Origin: Escherichia phage RB43
Reading direction: 5' to 3' (one strand)
Length of the DNA stretch: 64,000 nucleotides
Sequence record: NC_007023.1
Shown: positions 7,662-63,895 of the stretch, in pieces
Layout of the letters: the number at the start of each line of letters is the position of its first letter
Position numbering within the stretch: position 1 is the first letter of the stretch
Translations under genes and position numbers: made by a program
Notes under the pieces: generated by a model
Database searches by the model: none
Seen by the model: only the letters and a program-made list of their open reading frames with translations
Told to the model about the DNA's origin: nothing

Positions 7662-7829
7662 GAGCGAAGCGAACACACGAACGAAGTGAGTGTTTGGTAA
7701 CTCAACTACAGAACTACATAATTATATTTTAATATTTTATATATAGAGAAAAATGTAGTTTTTGGTATACTTTTTGTACAGATGTTAACTATCCGTCTTC
7801 GCTTCGCTTGACGGAACTCGCTTCGCTCG
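7662..7829. repeat. dyad-symmetric intergenic element, copy A
   Basis: Arms GAGCGAAGCGAA...CGAACGAAGTGAGTG / CTCGCTTCGCTCG around a 57-bp core (7712-7768) identical to 42423-42479; core is itself palindromic (AACTACAT...ATGTAGTT). Confidence 0.75.
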
Positions 7830-7903
7830 TAACCTTGAAAAAGTTATTGATCAATTCAATAAATAGGTATATCATACCCATACTTTCAAAAGAGATTGAA
7901 AAC

Positions 7904-8512
7904 ATGAAATCATTCAAAGAACTTATTTCTGAATCTGTTCAGAACAAAAAATTTGCAAAGACAGTTGATCTGGTTGACCGTGGTAATGCTTCAAAAGGTC
8001 AGATCGGTTTCTTACACTTCGCACATGGTGCTGACTACGATGTGTATGCTCCTGATTCTCACGATCTGGCTTACTTCGGTAAAGGCGTTGTTCGTTTGAA
8101 AGGTAAAACCACTGGCAAAACTCAGGCTGCTTATGTTGACTGGGCGAAAGGCACGGTTTCATTCTACAGCGGTGATCCTGCTGATGACCTGAAATTTGAC
8201 AAGCCAGCAAAATTCAAAGGTGCTTCCCTGTACAAAGAAGCGGAAGAGAACATTGATCTGTATAACCAGTTAGCGGAAGATTTCGAAATCGATCTTCCTC
8301 TGGATGAAGCGCTGGTGAAAGGCGGGATCTATAAACTGCCGAGTAACGATATGCACTTGCTGTATACCGGACGCACCAAAACCAAACCAACTGGGGAATA
8401 TGCGGTATTCACTGTTGTTGATGCTTCTGGTAAACCTCGTCTGGTATCCGGCGCACGATTCACCCAGGAATACAAAGGCGACGTAGTAGCCAAACTGGAA
8501 AAAGTCAAATAA
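7904..8512 (+). CDS. internal-protein-like protein with capsid targeting sequence (about 203 aa)
   Basis: N-terminus MKSFKELISE matches T4 CTS consensus MKTYQEFIAE; + gene inside minus-strand block; ATG at 7904 preferred over ORF-track start 7808. Confidence 0.6.
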   Translation: MKSFKELISESVQNKKFAKTVDLVDRGNASKGQIGFLHFAHGADYDVYAPDSHDLAYFGKGVVRLKGKTTGKTQAAYVDWAKGTVSFYSGDPADDLKFDKPAKFKGASLYKEAEENIDLYNQLAEDFEIDLPLDEALVKGGIYKLPSNDMHLLYTGRTKTKPTGEYAVFTVVDASGKPRLVSGARFTQEYKGDVVAKLEKVK

Positions 8513-9402: not shown

Positions 9403-9423
9403 AATTCCCTCCGTTTAGGGTAT

Positions 9424-9891: not shown

Positions 9892-9935
9892 TATAGATCC
9901 TAAATATAGTAAACATTAGATAGGGGAAATTACAA

Positions 9936-10490: not shown

Positions 10491-12256
10491 AATACGGTGG
10501 AAACCCATATTCCCCTTTCTTCGAAGGGGTGGTCGAAAATGTCGATGATCCTCGTTATCTGGGGCGCGTACAAGTTCGTGTGTTCGGTGAACATCCGGCA
10601 CAGAAACAAAAATCTGAAACTATCGGTATTCCGGTAGAAGAATTGCCGTGGATGATCCCTATCCAGGACATCACAAGCGCTGCTGTATCGGGTGTGGGTT
10701 TCTCTCCTACTGGTATCGTAAGGGGTAGCTTCGTTGTAGGTTACTGGCGTGATAAATGGCATCAGGACGGGGTTATATTAGGAACCTATGCAGGACAGTA
10801 CACAGAAAAGCCGGATACGCAGAAAGGCTTCTGTGACCCTCTGGGTGAATATCCACGTTATGTGGGTAACGATGTCAACGTTCTGGCTCGTGGTGGTTTA
10901 GACGGTAAAACATCGTCAAGTGTTGTTATCCGTGATGCAAACAGCACACTCGCTGTTAATCCAGACGATAGGCCGTTAGATGAAATTCCAGAAGATAACC
11001 GACCGGATACTGGGGGCTTTACAATTGAAAAAATGATCCGTGGTGATGAAGGTATTCGATTGACATGGTATTATGATGTCAAAGGGTATACCATCGGGAT
11101 TGGACACTTTTTCTTAACCGCTCCACAAGGTACAGATCCAGCAGTTGTTAACGCAGCGTTATCTAAACAAATTGGTAGAACTGTTACGGGTGTTCCTGGA
11201 TCAATCACAGCAGAAGAAGCGGGTGTTTTATTCCAGCAAGATTTGGCTAAAGTTCGTAACGATATTCAGAATAACAGCAAAGTTCGTGAAGTTTATGTTG
11301 GGTTAAATCGCCCACGTCAAATGGCGATCGAAAACATGTGCTTCCAGATGGGTGTTGGTGGTGTCGCCAAATTTACGAATGCTCTTGCAGCAATGAAAGC
11401 ACAGGATTGGAAGACAGCCTATAATGAGTTGCGAAATTCAACATGGGCTAATCAAACTCCTGGGCGTTCTTCGCGCGTATCTAAAATCGTGTTGACAGGA
11501 AACCTTGAATCATATGGTGTTATGGTTCCAGATCCAGAAGGACGCAGTTTAAGTGCTGCTTTTTCTGGTGTTGTTTTGCAAACTGATTCAAACCCAGAAG
11601 ATCCGTTTGTTCCTGGCGATACTCGCGTAATGTTCGAAGAACCGAAATCATCGTATAACGCATCATATCCATATAACATGGTATTTGAATCACGTTCAGG
11701 GCATATTCAGGAATTCGATGATACACCAGGTTATGAACGATATAACCGAGTACACCCAGCAGGAACATATGAAGAAATTCGACCTGATGGAACCCGCGTT
11801 GTTAAAATAGTTGGTGATGATTATCTTATTGTTCAACAGGGCAGAAAGGTAAACATCAAAGGCAATTTACAAGTGGTAATTGAAGGTGACGCGTTCATTT
11901 ACAATATGGGTAACGTTCAACAGACTGTTGACGGAAACGTGACTGAGTTTGTACGCGGAAATGTTAACCAGACTGTCGAAGGTGAATACGTTGGACGCAT
12001 TAAGGGCAACGCTGAATTGACTGTTGAAAAAGATGCTACCGTAAACGTTGACCAGAATTTAATGGCTAACGTTAAACAAAACGCAACTGTTCACGTCACA
12101 GAGGATGCACTTGTTACCGCGAAAAACGCAATGATGGATATTGAGCAAGATTTCGATCTTAACGCAGAAAATATCACAATGGTTGCGCGAACAAATACAT
12201 TCATCGATTCCGGTTCTCTGACTAAGATAACTGGTGGAACGGTTCAGGTGGGTTAA
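10487..12256 (+). CDS. 5: baseplate hub subunit and tail lysozyme gp5
   Basis: N-terminal OB region, lysozyme motif GYTIGIGHF, C-terminal beta-helix VxGxxxxx repeats. Confidence 0.9.
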   Translation: MKYGGNPYSPFFEGVVENVDDPRYLGRVQVRVFGEHPAQKQKSETIGIPVEELPWMIPIQDITSAAVSGVGFSPTGIVRGSFVVGYWRDKWHQDGVILGTYAGQYTEKPDTQKGFCDPLGEYPRYVGNDVNVLARGGLDGKTSSSVVIRDANSTLAVNPDDRPLDEIPEDNRPDTGGFTIEKMIRGDEGIRLTWYYDVKGYTIGIGHFFLTAPQGTDPAVVNAALSKQIGRTVTGVPGSITAEEAGVLFQQDLAKVRNDIQNNSKVREVYVGLNRPRQMAIENMCFQMGVGGVAKFTNALAAMKAQDWKTAYNELRNSTWANQTPGRSSRVSKIVLTGNLESYGVMVPDPEGRSLSAAFSGVVLQTDSNPEDPFVPGDTRVMFEEPKSSYNASYPYNMVFESRSGHIQEFDDTPGYERYNRVHPAGTYEEIRPDGTRVVKIVGDDYLIVQQGRKVNIKGNLQVVIEGDAFIYNMGNVQQTVDGNVTEFVRGNVNQTVEGEYVGRIKGNAELTVEKDATVNVDQNLMANVKQNATVHVTEDALVTAKNAMMDIEQDFDLNAENITMVARTNTFIDSGSLTKITGGTVQVG

Positions 12257-42384: not shown

Positions 42385-42543
42385 GAGCGAAGCGAATTTT
42401 CACGAACGAAGTGAGTGATAGGAACTACATAATTATATTTTAATATTTTATATATAGAGAAAAATGTAGTTTTTGGTATGGTTTTTAACCAGATGTAAAC
42501 TAACATTCACTCACTACGTTCGTTCATGTACTCGCTTCGCTCG
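42385..42543. repeat. dyad-symmetric intergenic element, copy B
   Basis: Same arms and identical 57-bp core (42423-42479) as copy A; arms form an imperfect ~34-bp inverted repeat. Confidence 0.75.
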
Positions 42544-42548
42544 TAAAT

Positions 42549-42599: not shown

Positions 42600-43022
42600 A
42601 TGACTGAACTAAAACTTGAAGATTTACAGGCTGAACTCGAACAGGATATGTTGATTGATCCTCTGAAACTACAGAGTGAATCAGCAGACATTCCGAAGAT
42701 TTGGTCAAAATGGCTTCGATATCATTCGAATGCTAAGAAAAAACTGATCCAGCTACAGGCCAGGAAAGAAGCAGATGTTAAAGAACGTCTTCTGTATTAC
42801 ACTGGACGGCATGAGACTGAAATGACTGATGTCATTTACACAGGTTCAGGTGAAATTAAGATTGCGATCAATGGTGATCCGAAAATTGTTGAGGTTAACA
42901 AGCTGATCCAGTATTTCGAATTGATTGCAGAATTCACCAGCAAAGCGCTGGACATTGTTAAGAACAAAGGATATTCTATCAAAAATATGTTGGAAATCCG
43001 AAAACTTGAGAGTGGTGCATAA
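42600..43022 (+). CDS. uvsY: recombination mediator UvsY
   Basis: LEDLQAELEQDMLIDPLKLQ, YSKWLRYHS, RLLYYTGR, AFEAG-like C-terminus match T4 UvsY. Confidence 0.85.
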   Translation: MTELKLEDLQAELEQDMLIDPLKLQSESADIPKIWSKWLRYHSNAKKKLIQLQARKEADVKERLLYYTGRHETEMTDVIYTGSGEIKIAINGDPKIVEVNKLIQYFELIAEFTSKALDIVKNKGYSIKNMLEIRKLESGA

Positions 43023-45375: not shown

Positions 45376-46296
45376 ATGAAAATTGATTACGAATTGGTAG
45401 AAGGGTTCCGTGCTCTGCCTACTAAAGAACAGAAAGGCGCACTGGCTGACTACGCTCAAAGCACCTTTGAAGTAAAATTGAACAAACAAAAATCATTCGA
45501 TAACATGCTGGCTGATCTGGAAGCTGCTGTACCAGCGGAAGAAGAAAAACCGGAACTGCTGATTGATTCCCCAGAATCCGCGATCGTTTCGTACACTGGT
45601 AGCGTTGCAATGGATGAACCTGTTGTTAACGCTCCGAACATTCCTGATGTTGTTGTCGATGTGTCGCAGGACTTTATGGATTACGTCAAAGACGTTGCGC
45701 CGGAAGTGGCTGATCAGATTAAATTAGTCCCTGATGTTGTTGTCGATGTGTCGCAGGACTTTATGGATTACGTCAAAGACGTTGCGCCGGAAGTGGCTGA
45801 TCAGATTAAATTAGTCCCTGATGTTGTTGTCGATGTGTCGCAGGACTTTATGGATTACGTCAAAGACGTTGCGCCGGAAGTGGCTGATCAGATTAAATTA
45901 GTCCCTGATGTTGTTGTCGATGTGTCGCAGGACTTTATGGATTACGTCAAAGACGTTGCGCCGGAAGTGGCTGATCAGATTAAATTAGTCCCTGATGTTG
46001 TAGAAGCGTCTGTAACCGCTTCTGACGAGTCCAAAGCTGATATGGCATGGTTGGACGGGTTTAGCCCTACAATCGTTCTGATGGGGCGTAGCGCTCGTTC
46101 TAACGGCTATTATACGTGTCCCTGGTGGATCTACGATTGGATTAAGAAAAATCCAGATTGGTACAAAGATCCTGACCAGTGTCCACACTACAGCGCACGG
46201 GATACCCTGAAATCGCTGGTGTACTACATCAAACGTGATGGTCAAGTTACTGTGCGTGAAACGCGCAACAGCAGTTTCGATACCTTCAAATTTTAG
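45376..46296 (+). CDS. hypothetical protein with 4 identical 29-aa repeats and C-terminal PWWIYD domain
   Basis: 306-aa ORF; repeat PDVVVDVSQDFMDYVKDVAPEVADQIKLV x4; C-terminal YYTCPWWIYDWIKKNPDWY. Confidence 0.6.
   Translation: MKIDYELVEGFRALPTKEQKGALADYAQSTFEVKLNKQKSFDNMLADLEAAVPAEEEKPELLIDSPESAIVSYTGSVAMDEPVVNAPNIPDVVVDVSQDFMDYVKDVAPEVADQIKLVPDVVVDVSQDFMDYVKDVAPEVADQIKLVPDVVVDVSQDFMDYVKDVAPEVADQIKLVPDVVVDVSQDFMDYVKDVAPEVADQIKLVPDVVEASVTASDESKADMAWLDGFSPTIVLMGRSARSNGYYTCPWWIYDWIKKNPDWYKDPDQCPHYSARDTLKSLVYYIKRDGQVTVRETRNSSFDTFKF
45643..45990 (+). repeat. perfect tandem repeat, 4 x 87 bp (plus 11-bp partial fifth unit)
   Basis: Units at 45643, 45730, 45817, 45904 identical by eye; in-frame inside CDS. 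Confidence 0.9.
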
Positions 46297-49862: not shown

Positions 49863-50783
49863 ATGAAACTTGAATTAAACCGCTTCATCAAAGCCGCTGC
49901 TGCTGGCGACCAGTCAAAATACAAATCCCGTCGCGATACCCTGATTGACGATTTCTGTAATCTGCTGGGGTTCAAGCGCTGGCATACTCCGTCTATGCGT
50001 CCAGACTGTGATCCAAAATGGGATTACTTCAAATGGACTCCCCGCGATCGTGGTTATGTCGATAACGTCCGCGTAATGACATTCACTCATATGTACGCAA
50101 ATGCAATAATAGAAGTTGCCAAACGTAATAATTCTACGTACCCGAACGGGTGGAAGGTTGCAGAAGTCATTGAAACCCTGATGCAACTGCGCCGTGAATA
50201 TAAAGCTGGAATGATGATGCAACTGCGCCGTGAATATAAAGCTGGAATGATACGTAAATTGGAAGAACAATCCGAAAGACATGAATATAAAGAATGGTCT
50301 ATCGTCGCAAAATATCTGCTGAACATCACCTATTCGGTTTTCTGTCGCTTCGGAACAAAAGAAATCGGGTTCGGTTCTCATGATATCATTGCAGAAGCCC
50401 GTCATCGCCTGACATACGCGATCCTGAAAATTCAAAATTCCGGTGGTCTTGTTCTGGCTGCATTCTGTGATGAAATTGTGTACTACGGCGATCAGGTTGA
50501 AGTTGAAGGTGTTCACCACGAAAAATTCAACAAACTTGTGTTCGGACAATATAACAGCTATTCATACGGAAACGATATCCGCGTGATGATGCACCCGCGT
50601 ATTATGCTGGATATGGAAGGGTGGGAACCTGGACACGGGATCGGTGATATCGAAAGCCAGCGTGAACGCCGTGTTCGTTCTGTCGCAAAAGCTCGCGAAT
50701 TGATGACGGGTAGCCTTACTGATTACCTGTTCAGAACAAAAGAAGACGTTGAAAAAGAATTTGTTGACTTGTCGGGCGAATAG
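49863..50783 (+). CDS. hypothetical protein (306 aa) containing a 36-bp tandem duplication
   Basis: ORF; MQLRREYKAGMM / MQLRREYKAGMI duplicated in frame. Confidence 0.55.
   Translation: MKLELNRFIKAAAAGDQSKYKSRRDTLIDDFCNLLGFKRWHTPSMRPDCDPKWDYFKWTPRDRGYVDNVRVMTFTHMYANAIIEVAKRNNSTYPNGWKVAEVIETLMQLRREYKAGMMMQLRREYKAGMIRKLEEQSERHEYKEWSIVAKYLLNITYSVFCRFGTKEIGFGSHDIIAEARHRLTYAILKIQNSGGLVLAAFCDEIVYYGDQVEVEGVHHEKFNKLVFGQYNSYSYGNDIRVMMHPRIMLDMEGWEPGHGIGDIESQRERRVRSVAKARELMTGSLTDYLFRTKEDVEKEFVDLSGE
50181..50252 (+). repeat. tandem duplication, 2 x 36 bp (35/36 identical)
   Basis: ATGCAACTGCGCCGTGAATATAAAGCTGGAATGAT(G/A) repeated head to tail. Confidence 0.85.
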
Positions 50784-50819
50784 CGATAAGCTGTAATCAC
50801 TGAAAACAAGGAGATAACC

Positions 50820-51138
50820 ATGAATACCATTCACTGCCGCAAAGAGTTCGTTGAGTTCTATCACGGATCATGTACTGCTGCCGGAATCGAAAGGCATGTT
50901 GTTACCTCCTTGTGCGTCTGAAACTCTGTCAGAGAAAGGCAGAAAGAAAAACTTAGACCGTGTTTTCTTCACCGCTGATATAGGTTTAGCCCGTATCTAT
51001 GCTGGAAGGGCTGCACGGTCAATCGGTGGTGATCCGGTACTGTATCGGGTTGTGTGTCCAGTTGACGCGGTATGTATGAACGACGACAAAGGCGCGAGTG
51101 TTTATCATGCTGCATGGGCTTTTTGTGAGGAAATATAA
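50820..51138 (+). pseudogene. small Arr-like (F-Y-H-G motif) ADP-ribosyltransferase-fold candidate; needs +1 frame change
   Basis: ATG 50820 with strong SD AAGGAGATAACC gives MNTIHCRKEFVEFYHGS... then TGA after 33 codons; +1 frame continues ...RVFFTADIGLARIYAG...LYRVVCPVD to 51138; A3 run at 50890-50892. Confidence 0.4.
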
Positions 51139-51275
51139 TGGAAATTTTGGTTCCTTTACTTGTTATTATGTTTATCGTGGTTTGGGTTATTGGTCCACTC
51201 ATTTTCATAGGTTATATCCTTTCAGAACACCAAAAATTTAACGAATGTTTGCGAAAAGGAATAAAATATGAATGA
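51138..51275 (+). CDS. small hydrophobic membrane peptide (45 aa)
   Basis: ATG overlaps upstream stop (TAATG); MEILVPLLVIMFIVVWVIGPLIFIGYIL. Confidence 0.35.
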   Translation: MEILVPLLVIMFIVVWVIGPLIFIGYILSEHQKFNECLRKGIKYE

Positions 51276-51435
51276 TCGTGTTTTAGCAATTCTCGTTTTC
51301 CTTCTGGGGTATCGGGTTGAGGTGTTCGGTGGACACATGATGCTTAATGGTGACTTGACCGCAATTTGGATGGTTGCTGTTGGTGTTATGTTCACTTTCT
51401 TATCATTTGCGATTGTCAACGAGGCTACCCAATGA
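51268..51435 (+). CDS. small hydrophobic membrane peptide (55 aa)
   Basis: MNDRVLAILVFLLGY...IWMVAVGVMFTFLSFAIV; overlaps neighbours. Confidence 0.35.
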   Translation: MNDRVLAILVFLLGYRVEVFGGHMMLNGDLTAIWMVAVGVMFTFLSFAIVNEATQ

Positions 51436-51758
51436 AACTATTTCATGTAGTGTATAGCGGTATGGTTAATGTTGATGTTCCCTTGCTTTCCGTCGAAACG
51501 ATTGATACACTCGAAGGGAAGATCGGAAAACGTTTTAAAACTACCGTATCCGAAATCAGTACGGTGTTTGTTGACCATCCGTCAGATCTGGAAAATTTAA
51601 TCAACACTCTCGATGATTTACAAATCCCGTTTGCGGAAATTTTTCATCATCAATCGGGGCTGTATCTGATTGTGACATTTGTTCTAAAAAATGTTGACAG
51701 CAGAAATCCAGAAGTGCTAGATTTTATCCGTAACATTGATTCAAACAAAGGAAAGTGA
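51432..51758 (+). CDS. hypothetical protein (about 108 aa)
   Basis: ATG 51432 (ATGA overlap) preferred over ORF-track start. Confidence 0.45.
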   Translation: MKLFHVVYSGMVNVDVPLLSVETIDTLEGKIGKRFKTTVSEISTVFVDHPSDLENLINTLDDLQIPFAEIFHHQSGLYLIVTFVLKNVDSRNPEVLDFIRNIDSNKGK

Positions 51759-52099
51759 TTATGAAAATCGTTCAGCGTAATATCAGCGAAGTTAGCCAGG
51801 AAGAAAAAGTTCAGATCCATTTCAAATTCAATGATCTGAAACGTGGTTATGCAGAAATTGCCCGTGTTCATAAGTTGGACAATGGCGACATTTATATGAT
51901 TGTCCAAGAAATTGAACGAATCCGCGCTTTCCGTGCCGAAAACCCGAAAGTAAAACGTGTTCTTCGTCGTGTGTATGTGAATAAACATCGTAAGGCTGCG
52001 AAACCAGTTAAACCAAAACGCGAACCGCGTCCAGACAACAAACGCAAAGCAATTAACGGTGCTATGGCGCTGGCTTTCCAGGAAGCAGGTTTAGTGTAA
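51755..52099 (+). CDS. hypothetical basic protein (114 aa)
   Basis: Lys/Arg-rich C-terminus; possible nucleic-acid binding. Confidence 0.5.
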   Translation: MIMKIVQRNISEVSQEEKVQIHFKFNDLKRGYAEIARVHKLDNGDIYMIVQEIERIRAFRAENPKVKRVLRRVYVNKHRKAAKPVKPKREPRPDNKRKAINGAMALAFQEAGLV

Positions 52100-52108
52100 G
52101 GGGTTAAC

Positions 52109-52636
52109 ATGAGTCGTAGAAATATGGAACGCTGGAATACTATTGTAACCAGCAGTATCAAACCAGTTGCGCCAGCGTTCAAGGAAGTTGTAGAAGAAAC
52201 TCCAGTTAAAACACAGACTGTTGTATCTTTGTGTGAAGAAGATTTAGAGCACCGTCGCCGTGCGAATCAAATTGAATTCGATCTGCGTATTGCCCGTTCA
52301 TACAACAGTAAAAACGATGATGCGCGTAGCCGTAACCTGCAATTTGCTCTTACGTTGAGCGATTGGACTGTGTTAATGAGTCAAACTACTTGTGCGTATT
52401 CCGGTAAGGTGTTTAGCACTCGCGGAGACAGCCCGAACTCTCGAACGATGGAACGTATTAACCCGATGTTGGGTTATACCCCAGAAAACACGATCGCAGT
52501 GACAAAAGCCGCTAACAGTGAAAAATCATCACTTGATGCGTTCATGAAGGGTTCTGTAATCCTTCCTGAAGTAAAACTGAAATTGTTACGCAAAGCCGCG
52601 TACCAAATTGAAAAACAATTGAAAATTAAAGGTTAA
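52109..52636 (+). CDS. hypothetical protein (175 aa)
   Basis: ORF upstream of rnlB. Confidence 0.5.
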   Translation: MSRRNMERWNTIVTSSIKPVAPAFKEVVEETPVKTQTVVSLCEEDLEHRRRANQIEFDLRIARSYNSKNDDARSRNLQFALTLSDWTVLMSQTTCAYSGKVFSTRGDSPNSRTMERINPMLGYTPENTIAVTKAANSEKSSLDAFMKGSVILPEVKLKLLRKAAYQIEKQLKIKG

Positions 52637-52640
52637 TATT

Positions 52641-53684
52641 ATGTTTGTGAAATATTCTTCTCTTACGAACCATTATGAAGGTAAATTCATCAATGGTGTG
52701 ATCATGAATGGTTTGACGGGCGGTGTGTGGGTTGCTCGTGAAAAGATCCACGGTGCTAACTTTAGTCTGATTACTTCTGACGGCGAAAGGGTTATTCCGG
52801 CAAAGCGTAGCGGTGAAATCCTTCCTACTGAACAGTTTTACGGTTGCGAACCTGTTGTTGCCCGATATGCCCCAGCAATCCGCAAACTGTGGGATGTCAT
52901 CAATACCGCACAACAGGTTAGCGGGATTTACGTTGATTCTCTGGTAATTCAGGTGTATGGTGAATTTGCGGGGCGCGGTGTTCAGAAAGATGTTGATTAC
53001 GGTGAAAAAGATTTCTACGTGTTCGATATCCGCGTAAATGGTAAATTCCTGCATGATAACATCGTTGCGGTGTATGCAAAAACTGTTGGCTTGAAAATGG
53101 CCCCGCTGTTAGCATACGGTACTTTTGACGAGATCCGAGCACTTCCGATCACGTTTGATTCAGTGGTTAACCTGGCGAACTCCGGCGCGATTCCTGCACA
53201 TAACGGGGTTGAACCTGAATTCAAAAACTTCATGACGCTGAAAGATGGTGAAGGTGAGAACATCGCAGAAGGTTTTGTTATGAAGCCCGTACACCCTGCT
53301 TTCATGCCGAACGGTGAACGTGTTGCAATTAAATGCAAAACGACGAAGTTTAGCGAGAAGAAAAACAAACAAGCGAACCGCTTCAATGCTCCGGCTGAAC
53401 TGTCGGAAAATGATAAAGTTAAACTGGATGTGTTCACCTGCTACCTGACAGAAAACCGCGTTAAAAACGTCCTGTCTAAAATTGACAGCACGAACCTTAC
53501 CGCGAAAGACTTCGGTCGCGTCATGGGGCTGACTGTACAGGATGCTCTTGAAGAAATCGAACGCAACTACGGACCGTTTATCGAACAGTTTGAAAACCCG
53601 ACGCTGGCGAAGAAAACTTTCACCAACGAAGCCTCAAGCCTGATTCGTACAAACTGGGGCGCAATCCTGAACAATGAATTTTAA
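52641..53684 (+). CDS. rnlB: RNA ligase 2
   Basis: VAREKIHGANFSL (ligase KxHG motif), VAIKCKTTKFSEKK, GRVMGLTVQDALEE match T4 Rnl2. Confidence 0.85.
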   Translation: MFVKYSSLTNHYEGKFINGVIMNGLTGGVWVAREKIHGANFSLITSDGERVIPAKRSGEILPTEQFYGCEPVVARYAPAIRKLWDVINTAQQVSGIYVDSLVIQVYGEFAGRGVQKDVDYGEKDFYVFDIRVNGKFLHDNIVAVYAKTVGLKMAPLLAYGTFDEIRALPITFDSVVNLANSGAIPAHNGVEPEFKNFMTLKDGEGENIAEGFVMKPVHPAFMPNGERVAIKCKTTKFSEKKNKQANRFNAPAELSENDKVKLDVFTCYLTENRVKNVLSKIDSTNLTAKDFGRVMGLTVQDALEEIERNYGPFIEQFENPTLAKKTFTNEASSLIRTNWGAILNNEF

Positions 53685-54257
53685 AACTGTTCTCGAAAAC
53701 GCAAAAACGGCTACCCTGATCGGTAGCCGTGAACCCCCCGAACGTATAGCAAACATCGCTATCAAGATCGGACGGCATTAAGTGATCGAGACATTTTAGC
53801 TTATTCTGGTGGTGCTCCTGGAATGGATAGCCATTTCTTGTTTGACTACGCACCAGAAAGACGGCGCATAATTCTCCCTGAAAACGGTTTTAACGGGCTT
53901 TACTCGAATGGTATGGATATCATCGACTATAACGAGTTAGACACGTACAAAGCCGCTGACGAAGCGAGAAAGGTAGCTGGGAACTTCGATTACCAAAATG
54001 AATGGACACAAAGGCGTTATGCGAGAAATGCAGTTCAGATATTGCGCGAAAATTTAGACAGCCCGACTGACTTCGTGTTATTTTGGGCTATCGAAAAGGA
54101 TTTTTGTGTCAAGGGCGGTACGGCTATCGCAACACGCCTTGCACGATTATACGGTGTTCCCAGTTTCAACCTGTGGAAAGAAAACGTATTGAATGATGTT
54201 TGTGATACTTTGGGGATTAATATCAAACCTCCAACTTTGGATTTTCTCTGGTGCTAA
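53674..54257 (+). pseudogene. DprA/SLOG-like (Rossmann) protein candidate; needs 1-nt frame change near C6 run 53734-53739
   Basis: ATG 53674 gives MNFKTVLENAKTATLIGSREPP... then TAA; adjacent frame continues ...DILAYSGGAPGMDSHFL... to 54257. Confidence 0.4.
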
Positions 54258-54323
54258 CTCCCGAACAATCACGTAATTACGAACGCCTCTCAGTTGAAGA
54301 GGCACTTAAAAAGGTTAAGAACA

Positions 54324-54527
54324 ATGGTAGAGATCAACGGAATCGGGGTGAACCCGAACGCATTAATTTCAAAGAACGATCCTCGTTGCGGTCGTAGTCC
54401 TACGCTGGCAGAACGTGCGCGTAAGCTGGTAGAGGAAACAAACGGCAAGATGTTTGAAACATGCCGTGAAGAAATCACCCGCAACATTCTAAGTTTTCCA
54501 ACAAAACAATCATACACGTTGATATGA
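54324..54527 (+). CDS. hypothetical protein (about 67 aa)
   Basis: Internal ATG with AAGG SD preferred over ORF-track start. Confidence 0.35.
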   Translation: MVEINGIGVNPNALISKNDPRCGRSPTLAERARKLVEETNGKMFETCREEITRNILSFPTKQSYTLI

Positions 54528-54745
54528 AACGTTTTGTTGGTACGACGATGGGGCAAGAATGCACCAAACGTGCGTTTGATATGATCGGGGAATGGCTGAC
54601 CGAAGAAGGTTTAACCTATGAAACCCAAGCGGTAAGAACGTCTGCCGCAATACAATATGCAATGAGTAACCGCCGTATTTCAGGAAACGCCCCTGTAACT
54701 GAAAGAACTGGGTATAGCGAATACACGTATTTCATCACCTGGTAA
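54524..54745 (+). CDS. hypothetical protein (73 aa)
   Basis: ORF with overlapping start/stop. Confidence 0.4.
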   Translation: MKRFVGTTMGQECTKRAFDMIGEWLTEEGLTYETQAVRTSAAIQYAMSNRRISGNAPVTERTGYSEYTYFITW

Positions 54746-54832
54746 AAAAGTTTGAAATAGTTGTTGACGGGAGTTCTGATTATGATAAGATAGCTCCCGT
54801 AGACAAGACAACTAACCCAGAAGGAAAACATC

Positions 54833-55090
54833 ATGGAAATCAAATTAATCCCTACTTGCGCTGGTTACTGCTTGGCACTGAACGGTGTAGCAAACAACGG
54901 CAAAGGCTTACGGGCTAACGTTGAAGCAATGCTGAATGAACTGGCGTTGCGGAGTGAACCTGGGATGCAGTATGAGTATGATGACGTTGCAACCAGCGTT
55001 AAAATCTCTAATCTGGTGATGAATGGTGTTGACTGTGCGGGTGGTGGGATTGCTACATCGACTATGCAGACAATCGGGTTTTCTTACTGA
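54833..55090 (+). CDS. hypothetical protein (85 aa)
   Basis: ORF with GAAGGAAAA SD. Confidence 0.4.
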   Translation: MEIKLIPTCAGYCLALNGVANNGKGLRANVEAMLNELALRSEPGMQYEYDDVATSVKISNLVMNGVDCAGGGIATSTMQTIGFSY

Positions 55091-55109
55091 CCAGCAACTA
55101 AGGAATGTT

Positions 55110-55520
55110 ATGAAAGATTATATTTCAGAAGCAGAAGCGCTTGAAGAAAGCGGTTTTCAAGTCACCATTGACGATGAAGAAGATGGTGGCTATGATGGCG
55201 GTGTTATGTGGGGGCTTAAACGTCCACAACGTAAAACCCCTGTTCAATATTCTGATGGTTCAGTAAGATACGAAACGGTTGTTAAAGAAGTAAACGGGCG
55301 CGTCATTACGTCCGAACGGCAGAAGGACATTAAACAATTGTATGATGTCGCAAAAGCCGCTAAAGTAGGAACCGAGATTGTTTGTCCGGTGTGCAAAGAG
55401 AAACACAAGAAGACGACCTATCATAAGGTGTTCTGCTCTAATGGCAAAAAATCCAGGAAAGACTGCAAGAGTAAATACTGGAACACGATTCATCCTGAAC
55501 GTTTGGATCGTATCTTTTAA
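55110..55520 (+). CDS. hypothetical protein with C-terminal Cys/His cluster (about 136 aa)
   Basis: ATG 55110 with AAGGA SD; CPVCKEKHKK...HKVFCSNGKKSRKDC. Confidence 0.45.
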   Translation: MKDYISEAEALEESGFQVTIDDEEDGGYDGGVMWGLKRPQRKTPVQYSDGSVRYETVVKEVNGRVITSERQKDIKQLYDVAKAAKVGTEIVCPVCKEKHKKTTYHKVFCSNGKKSRKDCKSKYWNTIHPERLDRIF

Positions 55521-55542
55521 TCAAAACGTGGAGTACGTTTAA

Positions 55543-56973
55543 ATGCAAACTTTTAATGAACTGAATAGCATCATCACCTCAACCGATTCCTACAAAGTGT
55601 CTCACTGGATGCAGTATCCGCAAGGCACTGATGCAGCGATGTTCTATATCGAATCTCGCGGTGGTAAATTTGATGAAGTAGTAACCGCTGGCGTTAACTA
55701 CGTTGCGCGGGTTCTCGCTGAACCAATTACCATGAAGCAGGTTGAGTTAGCGCGGGTACTTTACCGTAAACACTTCGGAAAAGAGATCTTTAACTACGAA
55801 GGGTGGAAAAAGATTGCTGAACTGGGTTACACCCCTGTAATTTTCCGTGCGATCCCAGAAGGTACGGTGTTCCGGGAAAAATGCCGTGCGACTGTGTACG
55901 CCGAAAACGAATTCTCGTGGCTGGCTGGGTGGCTGGAGACAATGACGATTCGCGGTATTTGGTATCCGTCATCTGTAGCAACGCTATCGCGTGAGTGTAA
56001 AAAGGTTCTGGCACACTACCTGGATATGACTTCTGACCTTACTGGCGAAGCATATAACATCACACTGGGTACACGTCTGCATGATTTTGGGGCGCGGGGC
56101 GCGACCTCTGCTGAATCTGCTGGCATTGGTGGGCTGGCACACCTTTATAACTTCATCGGCACTGATACCGTAGAAGGGATGATTATGGCAATCAGCCTCT
56201 TTGCGGATTATCAAACACTGTTTGATGAAGTTGAAAACGTAGAAGTAGCTGGGGTTTCCATCCCTGCTCGTGAGCATTCAACTACGATTTCCTACGGTAA
56301 AGAAAACGAAGACGAAGCATATAAAAACAGCATTGAAATGTTCGGTGATGGGTTCTACGCTTGCGTATACGATTCATGGGACTACAAAGCCGCTGTTGAC
56401 CGGATCGATAGTTATAAAGAGAAAATCATTGCATCTGGCGGTGTGTTGGTAGTGCGTCCAGACTCAGGGGATATGATAGACAACATCATGTACACCTTGC
56501 GCAAACTGGGGCAAATCTTCGGATATACTGTCAACTCCAAAGGGTACAAAGTTCTTCATAACTCTGTTCGTATCATCCAGGGTGACGAGATCCACGGGCC
56601 TGAAACAATCAACCGTGTATTAAGCTGGATGGAAGCGAACAAATGGTCGAGCGAAAACATTGCGTTCGGTATGGGTGGCGGTTTGCTGCAAGAAGTTACC
56701 CGCGATACCCAGAAATATGCTGAAAAACTTTGCGCTATCCGTATCAACGGTGTGTGGAAAGGCGTTTACAAATGCCCGAAAGGTTCGGAATGGAAAAAGA
56801 GCAAGAAAGGTTTATTGATGACCATCACTAACGGGATGGAATTCAAGACAATCGATTCTCTCGAAGAATCTATTCCTGCTGGGTGGTTTGATGCGATGGT
56901 AACTTATTATGACAATGGTTATCTGAACAAAACTGACACTTTAGGGGAAATTCGTGAGCGTAGCCGGATTTAA
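55543..56973 (+). CDS. nadV: nicotinamide phosphoribosyltransferase (NAMPT)
   Basis: TDSYKVSHW, GTRLHDFGARGATS, VVRPDSGD, IQGDEI, FGMGGGLLQ are NAMPT signatures. Confidence 0.85.
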   Translation: MQTFNELNSIITSTDSYKVSHWMQYPQGTDAAMFYIESRGGKFDEVVTAGVNYVARVLAEPITMKQVELARVLYRKHFGKEIFNYEGWKKIAELGYTPVIFRAIPEGTVFREKCRATVYAENEFSWLAGWLETMTIRGIWYPSSVATLSRECKKVLAHYLDMTSDLTGEAYNITLGTRLHDFGARGATSAESAGIGGLAHLYNFIGTDTVEGMIMAISLFADYQTLFDEVENVEVAGVSIPAREHSTTISYGKENEDEAYKNSIEMFGDGFYACVYDSWDYKAAVDRIDSYKEKIIASGGVLVVRPDSGDMIDNIMYTLRKLGQIFGYTVNSKGYKVLHNSVRIIQGDEIHGPETINRVLSWMEANKWSSENIAFGMGGGLLQEVTRDTQKYAEKLCAIRINGVWKGVYKCPKGSEWKKSKKGLLMTITNGMEFKTIDSLEESIPAGWFDAMVTYYDNGYLNKTDTLGEIRERSRI

Positions 56974-57262
56974 TATCCGCGCCAACGATAACGGATCTGT
57001 AATCTTCTATAACAATCAGCCCCTTGTTGCTCGCAAGGGGCTTTTTTGTAAGTTAGTTGGGTATGGGTTCAAGTTGGAACAGGTGGATAATGCAACACTA
57101 AAAGAGATCGTGCGCATAGCCTATCTCCTGAAAGATAAGAAAGATGAACATAAGGCGGTTGCAATGCTGGAGAAATTGGGAGAAAATCATTGCTTCATCA
57201 TAAATCGTGGATACAAATACGATACAATCGCTTTATTTGAAAAAGGGCTTAGTGAACTATGA
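56954..57262 (+). CDS. hypothetical protein (102 aa)
   Basis: ORF between nadV and dam; start codon uncertain (GTG). Confidence 0.35.
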   Translation: MSVAGFNIRANDNGSVIFYNNQPLVARKGLFCKLVGYGFKLEQVDNATLKEIVRIAYLLKDKKDEHKAVAMLEKLGENHCFIINRGYKYDTIALFEKGLSEL

Positions 57263-58110
57263 ATTATTTGGGTGTGATACCTTACACGGGCAACAAACAG
57301 GATCTATTGCATAAGTTGTTTGAACTGTTTCCCGACCACCGACACTATCGTAGATTTGTCGATTGCTTCTGTGGTGGATTGAGCGTGTCGTTAAACGTTC
57401 CCAAACCAGTTCTAAGCAACGATTTCGATAAGACACTGATTGATGTATATAAGGTTCTTAAACGCGCTCCTGATCTCTCAGAGGTGCGAGAATTGATTGC
57501 TAAGAAGGGACTGAACAAAGAAAACAAAGATGCGTACCTGGCTTTTCGTGAAGAATACAACCAGCATCGCGATCCGCTGTGGCTGTACGTTCTGATCCTT
57601 CATTCATTCAGCAATGTCAACCGCACCAATGAGAAGGGAGAGTTTAACGCGCATTTTGGATACCGGACGATAAACGCATCAACGGTTAAGCGCTTTGAAC
57701 ACTTCAAGGCAAACGTAGCCGGAATTGAATTCACTTCTGGTTCTTACTCTGATATTGAAATCAGGGACACCGATTTTGTATACTGCGATCCTCCGTACCT
57801 GATTACGGATGCGGTGTATAATAAATTCTGGAATGCTGATCGCGAACGCGAGTTATACGCATTTCTTGACTCGCTTAACGAGCGGGGCATTTGGTTTGGA
57901 TTGTCCAACGTGACACACCATGCCGGAAAACAAAACGATATCCTGATTGAATGGATGAAGAAATACACCGTTCACAACCTGGATAAAAAGTATCTGTTAG
58001 GCCAGCATACAGAATCCTATGAGCAAAACAAAACTCAGGAGGTGTACGTGTGCAACTATCAGAAACGTGATGTAAATACATTCCCCTTAACACTCGATGA
58101 TTTAATGTAG
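57259..58110 (+). CDS. dam: DNA adenine methyltransferase
   Basis: Motif I DCFCGGLSV and motif IV DPPY. Confidence 0.85.
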   Translation: MNYLGVIPYTGNKQDLLHKLFELFPDHRHYRRFVDCFCGGLSVSLNVPKPVLSNDFDKTLIDVYKVLKRAPDLSEVRELIAKKGLNKENKDAYLAFREEYNQHRDPLWLYVLILHSFSNVNRTNEKGEFNAHFGYRTINASTVKRFEHFKANVAGIEFTSGSYSDIEIRDTDFVYCDPPYLITDAVYNKFWNADRERELYAFLDSLNERGIWFGLSNVTHHAGKQNDILIEWMKKYTVHNLDKKYLLGQHTESYEQNKTQEVYVCNYQKRDVNTFPLTLDDLM

Positions 58111-61847: not shown

Positions 61848-62325
61848 ATGTACTGGACAAAAGACAAATTCGTGTTTCGTGATGATGAAAGTTTTGGCAC
61901 GGTATACCGAAATTTAGCTTTGCGTGGTAGTGCTTTATCACCAAATCAACTATCGTCTGTTGTAATGCCGATAAAGGTTACTCACTGTGACCGTTTTGGT
62001 GTCAATGGTCTTGTTGATTCCGCTGGCACTTCCTGGTATTCGAACTGTTCTTATCTGTTAGACAACAACGATCGTGATCTCTTCAAGAAAGCTGTCCCAG
62101 TTGTTAAGAAGTCAAGAATCTGGATGTTCAAAACTTCTGGACTGTGCGCATCTTCTGGGACGAGTTTACGTTAATGGAAAACTGGTCACAAAACAGGGTG
62201 ATCTTGAAAAATATCTTCGTAAACAACGTGAAGTTGCGTTGAAAGAAACAGAAAAAACAGTCAATCGGTTGACCAAATCGTTAGCCGAAGAAACAAAAAA
62301 TCTGAAACTGTTACGGGGTGAATGA
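61848..62325 (+). CDS. hypothetical protein; two overlapping frames joinable at A4 run 62130-62133
   Basis: Frame 1 from ATG 61848 ends 62174; frame 2 (62074-62325, coiled-coil-like) overlaps. Confidence 0.3.
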
Positions 62326-62564
62326 TGTTTCCATTAAAAGCGCGTGTTCGCAACAAAACAGGAACACAGGAATGGATGGAATGTATACGGGAAACAAAAC
62401 ATTTCTACATTTCTCAGGCAGTGGACAACAACGGAAAGAACATCCGTTATAATAAAGTTGGTGGTAAACGTGTGGGTATGGATCAATATCTCCAGGTTGG
62501 TACTGTTCGGCCTGTCAACGTTCCATTTGATTTAAGAATTCCTAACGGTAAACCTGTGATATGA
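62322..62564 (+). CDS. hypothetical protein (80 aa)
   Basis: ORF with overlapping start/stop. Confidence 0.4.
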   Translation: MMFPLKARVRNKTGTQEWMECIRETKHFYISQAVDNNGKNIRYNKVGGKRVGMDQYLQVGTVRPVNVPFDLRIPNGKPVI

Positions 62565-63070
62565 TCGGGAAAATCCTTGATATCCTGTTTCCCTCCCGTG
62601 TACGTGAGCGGGAGAAACAACAACAATTCGACGACATGTTAGAAGAAGTTATGTTCAATTCTTTTATGATGTGGAAGAAAAAACGCGAAGACGAGAAGCA
62701 CCCAAACGCACAAATGGCAAAGGGTGTTTCTAAATGCGCGGTTGGTCGTTACTGGGTTGAAAAAGATTATATTGATCTGATAGGCGCTATAGCTCCTGGG
62801 GTAACGCTGGAAGACTTTTCCCGTGCAACGGGGCGTTCGTATACTGGCTGCATCAATCGTCTGCGTATGCTGTCTATAGTGGTGCGTAGCAAGAATTACG
62901 GATATCGTGATGTTATCCGTCCGGTGATTCCGGTAAGCCGATTAAAAATTCACACGGCTAACGGAAAAAGACTTGACCTGACGGATGAAATGTGTAGAAT
63001 AGGCTATATCAGAGAGGGGAAAGTGTTAAAAGCCCCTGAATGGCTCACTAAACAATTTGAAATAAGGTAA
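62561..63070 (+). CDS. hypothetical protein (169 aa)
   Basis: ORF. Confidence 0.5.
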   Translation: MIGKILDILFPSRVREREKQQQFDDMLEEVMFNSFMMWKKKREDEKHPNAQMAKGVSKCAVGRYWVEKDYIDLIGAIAPGVTLEDFSRATGRSYTGCINRLRMLSIVVRSKNYGYRDVIRPVIPVSRLKIHTANGKRLDLTDEMCRIGYIREGKVLKAPEWLTKQFEIR

Positions 63071-63074
63071 TCAC

Positions 63075-63667
63075 ATGATTAAGAAAATATTTTCGTTCCT
63101 CAACAACAAAGTAGAAACCGTCATCGAGCAAAACACCTCCCCAGAGGACGCATGGCGTAGCGCTGCACGTATCCTGATCAAGAGATTGACCGTCTGCAAC
63201 ATACCCGCATCACGGCTGCTCATGAGATCGCGAAACTAAGCAAAAAAGTTGTTGAGCACAAAGCTCTGCATGAAAGCAAAGAAGCAGAAATCAAAAAACT
63301 GCTGGCTGCTTCTCAGGAAGTTTCAAACAGTCATTACATTCTGGCACTGCAACACCGCAATATCTGGCAGGGGTTGAAAGAAAAGATCAATGAACTGGCA
63401 GAAATGAACAAACAGATCGATCTGTCTGTTGTTGAACTCGATAAAAAACTGGCTGATGTCAAAATGAACCTGGAAATTATCGAACTGAACAAACAGACTG
63501 AAAGCCTGGGTCTGACTGTGCCGGAAGATGTGATTGCAAGCGTGGGTCATACCTCCGTGAACGTCGATACTATCGTAACGAAGATTGATGTTCTGCTGGG
63601 TGGTAAGAACGCCGCCTCCGTGACTTCCGCTGATGTAAGTGCATACATCGAAGCCCTGAAAGCATAA
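63075..63667 (+). pseudogene. hypothetical coiled-coil protein; needs frame change between 63161 and 63237
   Basis: ATG 63075 frame stops at 63237; long downstream coiled-coil frame is open from 63161 with no ATG. Confidence 0.35.
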
Positions 63668-63672
63668 TGAGG

Positions 63673-63694
63673 AAGGGGCGCAAGCCCCTTTTTG
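63673..63694 (+). terminator. rho-independent terminator (GGGGCGCAAGCCCC plus T5)
   Basis: Same hairpin as after wac. Confidence 0.5.
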
Positions 63695-63697
63695 CCT

Positions 63698-63895
63698 ATG
63701 TATTATATTGAGCGTGATGAATTCGATAATTACTTTGTTGTTGATACTGTCCGTATGATTCATGAACCTCTGCCGTTGACTTGGTACTATTTGACCGAAT
63801 CTAAAAGGAAGAGATCGCGAATCAAGTTTACAGAGATGCGCTGTATGCGAAAACCGATATCAAAAGCGCGGCAATACAATCCAAATGTGAATTGA
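63698..63895 (+). CDS. hypothetical protein (about 65 aa)
   Basis: ORF; no clear SD. Confidence 0.3.
   Translation: MYYIERDEFDNYFVVDTVRMIHEPLPLTWYYLTESKRKRSRIKFTEMRCMRKPISKARQYNPNVN

What the first reader, a model, noticed from the sequence alone, without database searches (positions are those of the whole stretch)
53674..54257. DprA/SLOG-like Rossmann protein next to rnlB
After frame correction the product contains ...TATLIGSREPP... and ...DILAYSGGAPGMDSHFLFDY..., reminiscent of the GSR and SGGAxGxD motifs of DprA/SLOG-family nucleotide-binding domains, which in phages are candidates for DNA-processing or signalling-nucleotide functions.
Basis: inference. Interest (0 to 1): 0.4.

Follow-up and report, generated by a model that had tools for sequence, protein, structure and literature searches.

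The report
Phage DprA-like gene, split by error
This is an ordinary, already annotated phage gene for a small DprA-like nucleotide/DNA-binding protein of untested function, and it looks broken here only because this sequence record is missing one base.

Summary
Window 53674..54257 holds two ORFs in different frames that join into one 194-codon gene. The window is phage RB43. The near-identical isolate RB43-GVA and phage RB16 carry the same gene intact. The window lacks a single T between 53774 and 53775 (GGACG-GCATT versus GGACGTGCATT).

The missing base is almost certainly a sequencing error. Across 64 kb the window differs from RB43-GVA by 23 single-base indels, some in essential baseplate, sheath and capsid genes. 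At all 18 sites that can be aligned, RB16 agrees with RB43-GVA.

It is not a canonical DprA. It falls below the Pfam and TIGRFAM cut-offs and is a bare Rossmann domain.

The family is large: 1194 phage records and about 6800 clusters. Members are often fused to the ADP-ribose-processing domains NADAR, Macro and DUF4326. Published comparative work already describes such viral SLOG domains.

Function is untested. The most likely role is binding ssDNA or a nucleotide, tied to NAD/ADP-ribose counter-defence.

The parts
53674..53774 (+). N-terminal part of the gene (codons 1-33 plus the first two bases of codon 34). The ATG overlaps the last 11 nt of rnlB.
   Evidence: Continuous with the rest of the gene in RB43-GVA and RB16.
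53774..53775 (+). Site of the missing T (GGACG|GCATT here, GGACGTGCATT in RB43-GVA, RB16 and IME-CF2). This is the cause of the apparent frameshift.
53775..54257 (+). Remainder of the gene (codons 35-194 and the stop), one base out of register with the first part. ORF finders report only 53823..54257 (144 aa, from internal Met51).
53722..53730 (+). Codons G17-S18-R19, the DprA 'G-S/T/A-R' motif. It aligns with HpDprA G50-T51-R52, and R52 is the ssDNA pocket switch.
   Evidence: PMC3950713.
53805..53828 (+). Codons S45-G-G-A-P-G-M-D52, the SGxAxGxD loop shared with DprA (E. coli Smf S142-GLARGI-D149).
54018..54038 (+). Codons Y116-A-R118-N119-A-V-Q122, the R-N of the DprA 'F/L/Y-x-x-R-N/D' motif plus a family-specific invariant Gln.
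   Evidence: PMC3950713.
54114..54122 (+). Codons G148-G149-T150. This loop aligns with HpDprA S163-G164-S165 and sits in the position of the LOG-family PGGxGT motif.
52641..53684 (+). rnlB (RNA ligase 2), the upstream neighbour. Its stop overlaps the start of the gene.
   Evidence: RNA_ligase + T4_Rnl2_C. The pair is conserved in T4-like loci.
55543..56973 (+). Nicotinamide phosphoribosyltransferase (NAMPT), 1.3 kb downstream on the same strand. It is context only, not shown to be part of one system.

Best explanation
Window 53674..54257 is one real gene of 194 codons. In this record it is split by a missing T between 53774 and 53775, and that missing base is a base-calling error, not a mutation or a programmed frameshift. 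The gene encodes a stand-alone DprA-type SLOG Rossmann domain belonging to PHROG 768.

Inferred mechanism: the GSR loop, the R118-N119 helix and the G148-G149-T150 loop form the same small basic pocket that in H. pylori DprA holds one base and its phosphate of single-stranded DNA. The protein therefore most likely binds ssDNA, or a nucleotide or ADP-ribose-bearing ligand, rather than catalysing a reaction. It has none of the LOG-type catalytic Glu.

Inferred role: an accessory early function in phage DNA metabolism or counter-defence, working alongside enzymes that process NAD/ADP-ribose. Relatives are repeatedly fused to NADAR, Macro and DUF4326 domains, and two unrelated phage lineages keep the gene within about 1.3 kb of NAMPT.

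What is shown: the gene structure, that the indels are derived changes confined to this record (which makes sequencing error the only tenable reading), the fold, the motif conservation, and the fusions and neighbourhoods. What is inferred: the ligand, the lack of catalysis and the biological role.
For: Gene structure and artefact:
- Orthologues are intact in RB43-GVA, RB16 and UPEC03.
- The window differs from RB43-GVA by 23 single-base indels against 14 substitutions in 64 kb.
- Six 'missing T after G' events lie within 53775..55887.
- At all 18 alignable indel sites RB16 matches RB43-GVA without gaps. These include sites in gp6, gp18 and gp24, where a frameshift would be lethal.
- NAMPT carries a 7-residue scrambled patch from three dropped T's within 19 nt.

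Fold and family:
- PHROG 768 E 4.9e-58.
- Pfam DNA_processg_A 21.9 bits over residues 6-54.
- Family profile against HpDprA E 3.5e-6 and against LOG E 2.5e-3.
- AlphaFold model pLDDT 95.1.
- Foldseek against HpDprA E 6.5e-7 and against ShosA E 6.8e-5.

Pocket:
- G17, R19, D52, R118, G148, G149 and T150 are invariant, and N119 is N in 202 of 206, across 207 relatives.
- The motifs occur in the same order as in E. coli Smf, with near-identical spacing.
- HpDprA R52, R143, N144 and G164 are the residues that contact ssDNA (PMC3950713).

ADP-ribose link:
- Fusions to NADAR (6), DUF4326 (5), Macro (1) and RecJ (1) among the longer relatives.
- Macro or DUF4326 within 10 kb in 7 of 37 lineages, and NAMPT in 2 more.
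- NAMPT and PRPP synthetase lie 1.1 kb from the homologue in a Pakpunavirus.
- The same pattern is described in PMC9503650.
- NADAR gp30.3 removes ADP-ribose from DNA and defeats DarTG1 (PMC11257639).
Against: - No reads are available, so a real mutation in the sequenced stock cannot be formally excluded.
- Nothing here tests binding or catalysis.
- RB43's own copy has Arg where most relatives and DprA have Leu/Phe/Tyr at the first position of the F/L/Y-x-x-R-N motif.
- No background control was run for the neighbourhood counts.
- My NADAR profile found no NADAR within 10 kb in the 80 viral loci.
- In the close relative RB16 the NADAR gene (30.3) lies about 96 kb away.
- Many homologues sit among unrelated small genes.
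- Published prediction favours soluble ADP-ribose derivatives rather than ssDNA as the ligand (PMC9503650).
Confidence: 0.6

Rival explanations
1. The frameshift is real. This RB43 stock carries a pseudogene, or makes only the 144-aa C-terminal fragment from Met51.
For: The base is absent from the sequence as given. Another record, IME-CF2, also has a 1-nt deletion in the N-terminal part, at a different site, and is annotated with the same 144-aa ORF. The gene is probably dispensable in the laboratory.
Against: The window has 23 single-base indels against RB43-GVA, and all 18 testable ones are derived in the window. They include sites in essential structural genes, which a viable phage could not carry. 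Same-type errors cluster around the site. A 144-aa product would lack strand 1, the GSR loop and the SGGAPG loop, which form the core of the pocket. The IME-CF2 deletion is a CC-to-C undercount at another position, so it is more likely another record error.
Confidence: 0.07
2. The site is a programmed -1 frameshift, or the region holds two independent genes (a 35-aa peptide plus a 144-aa protein).
For: Two ORFs in different frames overlap in the window.
Against: Every close relative examined except IME-CF2 (RB43-GVA, RB16, UPEC03) has a single continuous ORF, and IME-CF2's break is at a different site. There is no slippery heptamer in the overlap ATCAAGATCGGACGGCATTAA. Rfam finds nothing. The N-terminal 35 residues carry strand 1 and the invariant GSR motif of the same domain.
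Confidence: 0.01
3. The protein acts on soluble NAD-derived immune signals. It would sequester or cleave cyclic ADP-ribose isomers or related molecules made by host TIR/Thoeris-type systems, as predicted for viral SLOG domains.
Against: The closest relatives by sequence and structure are DprA domains, and the residues conserved are exactly the DprA ssDNA-pocket residues. There is no LOG-like catalytic Glu after GGT. NADAR and DarG-type Macro domains are now known to act on ADP-ribosylated DNA, so the fusions do not single out soluble ligands. RecJ fusions point to ssDNA.
Confidence: 0.22
4. It is a true recombination mediator like bacterial DprA. It would bind ssDNA as a dimer and load a recombinase (phage UvsX or host RecA).
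For: This is the RefSeq/PHROG name. DprA is the best structural hit and the DprA signature motifs are present. The DprA domain alone suffices for ssDNA binding in H. pylori.
Against: It scores below the Pfam (21.9 vs 29.6) and TIGR00732 (18 vs 191) cut-offs. It lacks the SAM and C-terminal domains. The RB16/RB43 lineage already encodes UvsX, UvsY, gp32 and gp46/47. The fusion partners are mostly ADP-ribose-processing domains, not recombination proteins. RecA/UvsX interaction residues could not be assessed.
Confidence: 0.12
5. It is an orphan antitoxin mimic. A stable phage DprA-like protein would substitute for the labile DprA-like antitoxins ShosA or PsyrA and so disarm the ShosTA/PsyrTA defence systems.
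Against: The similarity to ShosA is weaker than to DprA and covers only the shared N-terminal motifs (47 residues). ShosA is 308 aa with extra elements needed for dimerisation and RecA binding. No experimental link exists.
Confidence: 0.08

Closest known systems
PHROG 768 / RefSeq 'DprA-like DNA recombination-mediator protein' of T4-like phages (e.g. RB16p235, YP_003858535.1)
   Same: It is the same gene. RB16p235 differs from the frame-corrected product at only 3 of 194 residues (tblastn 98%), has the same length and lies in the same position after rnlB. The PHROG match covers 3-188 of 191 profile positions.
   Different: The only difference is the one-base gap in this record. The family name is an annotation by similarity, and no member has been tested.
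Bacterial DprA/Smf Rossmann-fold domain (PF02481; H. pylori DprA, PDB 4LJK/4LJR/5MLL)
   Different: It scores below the Pfam and TIGRFAM thresholds. It has no SAM or DML1/winged-helix domains. A different insert of about 35 residues lies between the NGFN and R-N motifs. RB43 has Arg at the first position of the F/L/Y-x-x-R-N motif. There is a family-specific invariant Gln122. It is encoded by lytic phages, not competence regulons.
Viral SLOG domains described by Iyer, Burroughs, Anantharaman and Aravind 2022 (PMC9503650)
   Same: Stand-alone SLOG proteins of medium and large phages with sporadic fusions to Macro, NADAR and DUF4326. I recovered the same fusions for this family.
ShosA, the DprA-like antitoxin of the ShosTA defence system (PDB 8ZVA)
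   Same: A SLOG/DprA fold with shared N-terminal motifs. ShosA binds ssDNA.
   Different: ShosA is 308 aa, is paired with a PRTase toxin and binds RecA. The phage protein is 194 aa with no toxin partner.
LOG cytokinin-activating phosphoribohydrolases and the ThsA SLOG cADPR sensor
   Different: The phage protein has no PGGxGTxxE catalytic motif and no Pfam Lysine_decarbox hit. It has no fused SIR2 effector.

Membership tests
SLOG superfamily (SMF/DprA-LOG Rossmannoid domains) | Three-layer alpha/beta Rossmannoid fold with a parallel sheet, most similar to known SLOG structures | tested here: met
SLOG superfamily (SMF/DprA-LOG Rossmannoid domains) | Conserved polar or Gly-rich loops after strand 1 and strand 2, and a GG(x)T loop before the late helix | tested here: met
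   IGSR 16-19, SGGAPGMD 45-52 and GGT 148-150 are invariant or nearly so in 207 relatives.
PHROG 768 (phage 'DprA-like DNA recombination-mediator protein') | Full-length match to the family profile | tested here: met
   E 4.9e-58, 196.8 bits, residues 10-189 on profile positions 3-188 of 191.
DprA/Smf (Pfam PF02481 DNA_processg_A) | Score at or above the Pfam gathering threshold | tested here: not met
   21.9 bits against a cut-off of 29.6, and only residues 6-54 are matched. A few relatives reach it (P0129 at 29.7; precomputed PF02481 on some hits).
DprA/Smf (NCBIfam TIGR00732 equivalog) | Score at or above the equivalog cut-off | tested here: not met
   18.1 bits against 191.15.
DprA/Smf | Signature motif 1 'G-S/T/A-R' (Wang et al. 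2014, PMC3950713) | tested here: met
   G17-S18-R19 aligns to HpDprA G50-T51-R52. G and R are present in 204 of 204 relatives.
DprA/Smf | Signature motif 2 'F/L/Y-x-x-R-N/D' (PMC3950713) | tested here: inconclusive
   R118-N119 is present and invariant. The first position is L, M or F in 179 of 207 relatives but R115 in RB43 and its clade. Placement rests on motif order and spacing relative to E. coli Smf, not on a residue-level structural alignment.
DprA/Smf | Accessory domains (N-terminal SAM-like, C-terminal DML1/winged helix) found in most DprA proteins | tested here: not met
   The protein is 194 aa and a single domain spans essentially the whole model. E. coli Smf is 374 aa.
DprA/Smf | ssDNA binding, dimerisation and RecA loading | not testable with these tools
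   This needs biochemistry.
LOG family (PF03641) | PGGxGTxxE motif with catalytic Glu; Pfam match | tested here: not met
   The sequence reads KGGTAIATRLA with no Glu, and there is no Pfam hit even at E <= 10. The similarity is at fold level only.
ShosA / PsyrA antitoxins | Full-length match to the antitoxin profile, and an adjacent PRTase or helicase toxin gene | tested here: not met
   The PADLOC hits cover 47 residues only (E 1.5e-4 and 6.7e-3). The neighbours are rnlB and small ORFs.

The most novel reading that the evidence does not exclude
The DprA-type SLOG domain is a reader of damaged single-stranded DNA. It would capture a flipped-out, ADP-ribosylated base in its GSR/R-N/GGT pocket and hand it to NADAR-, Macro- or DUF4326-type hydrolases. 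These hydrolases are fused to it in many phages and encoded separately in RB43/RB16 as gp30.3. The protein would then be an unrecognised accessory component of phage counter-defence against DarT-like DNA ADP-ribosyltransferases.
Probability: 0.12. Interest if true: 0.65.

Novelty: already known. Interest (0 to 1): 0.2.

Why it matters
For this window it matters little. The gene is annotated in sister genomes and the frameshift is a record error, which mainly warns that this sequence contains many single-base errors that split or distort genes.

The family is of more interest. It occurs in about 2.4% of deposited phage genomes and in thousands of metagenomic clusters. It keeps the DprA ssDNA-pocket residues invariant and is repeatedly fused to ADP-ribose-removing domains, yet no member has been tested. 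Finding its ligand would assign a function to a common phage gene and could add a component to the NAD/ADP-ribose arms race between phages and bacteria.

Tried and rejected
- **AFDB50 fold search:** the library was not available, so BFVD was used instead. It returned only other phage 'DprA-like' or unnamed proteins.
- **hhalign of the family against a single E. coli Smf sequence:** it aligned only the N-terminal 66 columns, and hmmsearch likewise. The R-N motif correspondence therefore rests on motif order and spacing.
- **phmmer with one NADAR seed** found few fusions. A NADAR HMM built from 8 seeds found none within 10 kb in 80 viral loci.
- **Promoter and terminator scan of 50800..57400:** counts were no higher than in shuffles.
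- **Rfam on 50000..58000:** no hits.
- **Programmed frameshift and an independent 35-aa gene:** considered and rejected from the orthologues.
- **A functional rnlB-SLOG pair:** considered. The pair abuts or overlaps in T4-like loci whose SLOG is down to 32-39% identical to RB43's. However, Krischvirus and Aeh1 carry the SLOG gene next to gp24/hoc/inh with no RNA ligase annotated within 4 kb, and, from my own knowledge, T4 has rnlB there with no SLOG gene. I therefore read the pair as inherited synteny.
- **UPEC03's 143-aa 'FHA domain-containing protein':** this is a mis-called start, and the DNA is intact.

Full report
**What is in the sequence.** Window 53674..54257 contains two ORFs. A 35-codon ORF (53674..53781) reads MNFKTVLENAKTATLIGSREPPERIANIAIKIGRH*. 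A 144-codon ORF (53823..54257) has a reading frame that extends upstream as ...RTALSDRDILAYSGGAPGMDSHFLFDY.... The ATG at 53674 overlaps the last 11 nt of the upstream RNA ligase 2 gene rnlB (52641..53684; Pfam RNA_ligase + T4_Rnl2_C).

**Origin of the window and nature of the frameshift.** A 3-kb query around the site matches two Pseudotevenvirus RB43 records (isolate RB43-GVA, HE858210.2 and HE981739.1) at 99.9%. It matches Buttiauxella phage GuL6 at 98.3% and phage RB16 at 97.0%. In RB43-GVA and RB16 the region is a single 585-bp CDS of 194 codons. RefSeq names the RB16 copy 'DprA-like DNA recombination-mediator protein'. The DNA alignment shows one difference responsible for the split. The window reads GGACG-GCATT where the others read GGACGTGCATT, so a T is missing between 53774 and 53775 in codon R34.

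**The missing T is very probably a sequencing error.** I aligned the whole 64-kb window with RB43-GVA.
- There are 23 single-base indels against only 14 substitutions.
- Six events in which the window lacks a T directly after a G fall within 53775..55887. Four A-run undercounts follow at 62106..63803.
- At all 18 indel sites where RB16 can be aligned, the RB43-GVA version aligns without a gap and the window version does not. All the indels are therefore derived in the window.
- Several lie in essential genes: gp6 baseplate wedge at 14432, gp18 sheath at 33493-33559 and gp24 at 42326 (gene names from the RB16 annotation). A viable phage could not carry frameshifts there.
- In NAMPT, three dropped T's within 19 nt produce a scrambled patch, TVFREK-CRATVY against TVVPVKNAVATVY in both RB43-GVA and RB16.

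Together this is the signature of base-calling errors. Only reads could prove it.

Two other records with a '144-aa' version were checked. IME-CF2 has a different one-base deletion (GGTAG-CGTG). UPEC03 is intact at the DNA level and merely has a mis-called start. There is no slippery sequence in the overlap and no Rfam element. A programmed frameshift or an independent 35-codon gene is therefore rejected.

**What the protein is.** The intact product gives these matches.
- PHROG 768, E 4.9e-58, over its full length.
- Pfam DNA_processg_A, 21.9 bits (cut-off 29.6), residues 6-54.
- TIGR00732 dprA, 18 bits (cut-off 191).
- PADLOC ShosA E 1.5e-4 and PsyrA E 6.7e-3, N-terminal 47 residues only.
- A profile of 51 relatives finds H. 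pylori DprA chains in the PDB at E 3.5e-6 and a LOG enzyme at E 2.5e-3.

**Motifs.** Across 207 relatives:
- G17 and R19 are present in 204 of 204.
- D52 is present in 207 of 207.
- R118 is present in 206 of 206.
- N119 is N in 202 of 206.
- Q122 is Q in 202 of 206.
- G148, G149 and T150 are each present in 206 of 206.

E. coli Smf has the same motifs in the same order: GSR 114-116, SGLARGID 142-149, FPRRN 208-212 and SGS 231-233. The Arg-to-Ser spacing is 26 residues in both proteins. Wang et al. (PMC3950713) defined 'G-S/T/A-R' and 'F/L/Y-x-x-R-N/D' as the DprA signatures. They showed that HpDprA R52, F140, R143, N144 and G164 form the pocket that holds one base of ssDNA. The HMM alignment puts R19 on R52 and G149 on G164. 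R118-N119 corresponds to R143-N144 by order and spacing. The first position of motif 2 is L, M or F in 179 of 207 relatives but Arg in the RB43 clade. There is no LOG-type PGGxGTxxE catalytic motif.

**Why it is not a canonical DprA.** It fails both curated thresholds. It is a bare Rossmann domain without SAM or DML1 domains. It carries a different insert of about 35 residues between the NGFN and R-N motifs. The RB16/RB43 lineage already encodes UvsX, UvsY, gp32 and gp46/47.

**Distribution and context.**
- The profile finds 6806 clusters (at 50% identity) at E <= 1e-3 and 3053 at E <= 1e-30. Most are stand-alone proteins of 165-200 aa.
- tblastn finds the family in 1194 of 50,697 phage records. 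These include Klebsiella, Pseudomonas, Vibrio, Aeromonas and Acinetobacter phages, and many copies are already annotated as DprA-like.
- I scanned 30 relatives longer than about 255 aa. The identifiable partners are NADAR (P0063, P0064, P0075, P0096, P0178, P0207), DUF4326 (P0137, P0163, P0105, P0076, plus P0033), Macro (P0145), RecJ DHH-DHHA1-OB (P0199) and DUF7831.
- In 80 IMG/VR loci, which form 37 lineages at 60% identity, Macro lies within 10 kb in 5 lineages, DUF4326 in 3 and NAMPT in 2. Together that is 9 lineages with at least one of these genes nearby.
- A Pakpunavirus, unrelated to T4-like phages, has PRPP synthetase and NAMPT 1.1 kb from its copy. RB43 has NAMPT 1.3 kb downstream.
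- No background control was run, so these counts are suggestive only.
- Rnl2 is within 10 kb in 6 lineages and directly abuts or overlaps the gene in 4 of them, with SLOG identity to RB43 down to 32-39%. All are on contigs of 143-183 kb, the size of T4-like genomes, apart from two shorter fragments in the RB43-like cluster.
- Krischvirus MIZ5 and Aeromonas phage Aeh1 carry the SLOG gene next to gp24/hoc/inh, with no RNA ligase annotated within 4 kb. From my own knowledge, T4 has rnlB at that place with no SLOG gene. The pair is therefore separable and best explained by inherited synteny.

**Literature.**
- Iyer, Burroughs, Anantharaman and Aravind (PMC9503650) already describe viral SLOG domains. 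They report them in 31% of jumbo phages and 19% of medium phages, fused to Macro, NADAR and DUF4326. They predict that these domains sense or process ADP-ribose derivatives and state that they are experimentally uncharacterised.
- ShosA is a DprA-like antitoxin that binds ssDNA and RecA (PMC12961424, PMC11961720).
- T4 gp30.3 is a NADAR DNA ADP-ribosylglycohydrolase that defeats DarTG1 (PMC11257639). RB16 has a 30.3 homologue about 96 kb from the SLOG gene.
- I found no paper testing a phage member of this family.

**Most likely mechanism (inferred).** The protein binds ssDNA or a nucleotide-like ligand through the DprA-type pocket and does not catalyse a reaction. It probably acts early in infection as an accessory to DNA metabolism or counter-defence, functionally linked to NAD/ADP-ribose-processing enzymes. 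Rival readings, in decreasing order of my confidence, are:
1. A sponge or hydrolase for soluble cADPR-type signals.
2. A true recombination mediator.
3. A ShosA/PsyrA antitoxin mimic.

**Verdict.** The feature is a known, annotated phage gene family, and the apparent frameshift is an artefact of the record. Interest for this locus is low. The untested function of the family is the only open question.

Noticed in passing
window, whole 64 kb (sites 1055, 3000, 3007, 3395, 6548, 6575, 6596, 14432, 33493, 33499, 33559, 42326, 50893, 53775, 54519, 55042, 55869, 55876, 55887, 62106, 62130, 63180, 63803): There are 23 single-base indels relative to RB43-GVA against only 14 substitutions. At all 18 testable sites RB16 agrees with RB43-GVA. 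Several fall in essential structural genes (gp6, gp18, gp24), so any ORF oddity in this window should first be suspected as a sequencing error.
   Followed up: yes
window 54294..54745: Two ORFs (54294..54527, 77 aa; 54524..54745, 73 aa) correspond to one 140-aa gene of unknown function in RB43-GVA and a 142-aa gene in RB16. They are split by a missing T at 54519. The intact protein has no Pfam hit.
   Followed up: partly
window 54833..55520: A missing T at 55042 alters the end of an 89-aa gene and artificially lengthens the next ORF upstream (165 aa here against 136 aa in RB43-GVA). Both proteins lack Pfam hits.
   Followed up: partly
window 55869..55887 (inside NAMPT 55543..56973): Three T's are missing within 19 nt. 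They give a 7-residue scrambled patch (TVFREK-CRATVY against TVVPVKNAVATVY) and a protein one residue short.
   Followed up: yes
window 45643..46001: A perfect 87-bp tandem repeat of 4.1 copies lies inside the inh-like head-protease-inhibitor gene (45376..46296, 306 aa). RB43-GVA annotates a 219-aa gene there with fewer copies. This is either in-frame 29-aa repeat expansion or an assembly difference.
   Followed up: partly
window 7711..7832 and 42422..42546: Two copies of a roughly 125-bp intergenic element, 84% identical and in direct orientation. One lies upstream of the ORF at 7808..8512 and the other upstream of uvsY (42600..43022). They may be the mobile promoter/stem-loop cassettes reported for RB43; that is my recollection and was not checked.
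   Followed up: no
L039, L041-L046, L052, L055 (about 8950-10600 in each) and window 52641..54257: An RNA ligase 2 gene directly abuts or overlaps the DprA-like gene in T4-like phages whose SLOG proteins are only 32-39% identical to RB43's. The in vivo role of Rnl2 is unknown, so the conserved pair may deserve a look, although each gene also occurs without the other.
   Followed up: partly
L026 17..4588 (Pseudomonas phage 20Sep416, Pakpunavirus): PRPP synthetase, NAMPT and four small ORFs are followed by the DprA-like gene, all on one strand. This is a second, unrelated lineage that places the gene beside NAD-salvage genes.
   Followed up: partly
P0063, P0064 (about 1480 aa), P0104, P0182; L068 7250..11074; L102 9236..14005: Giant multidomain proteins carry this SLOG domain, and P0063 and P0064 also have YAcAr and SLOG-cluster4 domains and a C-terminal NADAR. 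They look like phage or plasmid polyvalent proteins.
   Followed up: partly
window 57018..57042: A strong terminator-like hairpin (10-bp stem, 6 G-C pairs, T-run) lies inside the 102-codon ORF 56954..57262, just after the NAMPT stop.
   Followed up: no
L015 1575..2158 (Citrobacter phage IME-CF2, NC_029013.1): The RefSeq record has its own one-base deletion in the GSR codons (GGTAG-CGTG), so its 'DprA-like' CDS is annotated as a 144-aa fragment. Escherichia phage UPEC03 annotates an intact gene from the internal Met as an 'FHA domain-containing protein'.
   Followed up: yes
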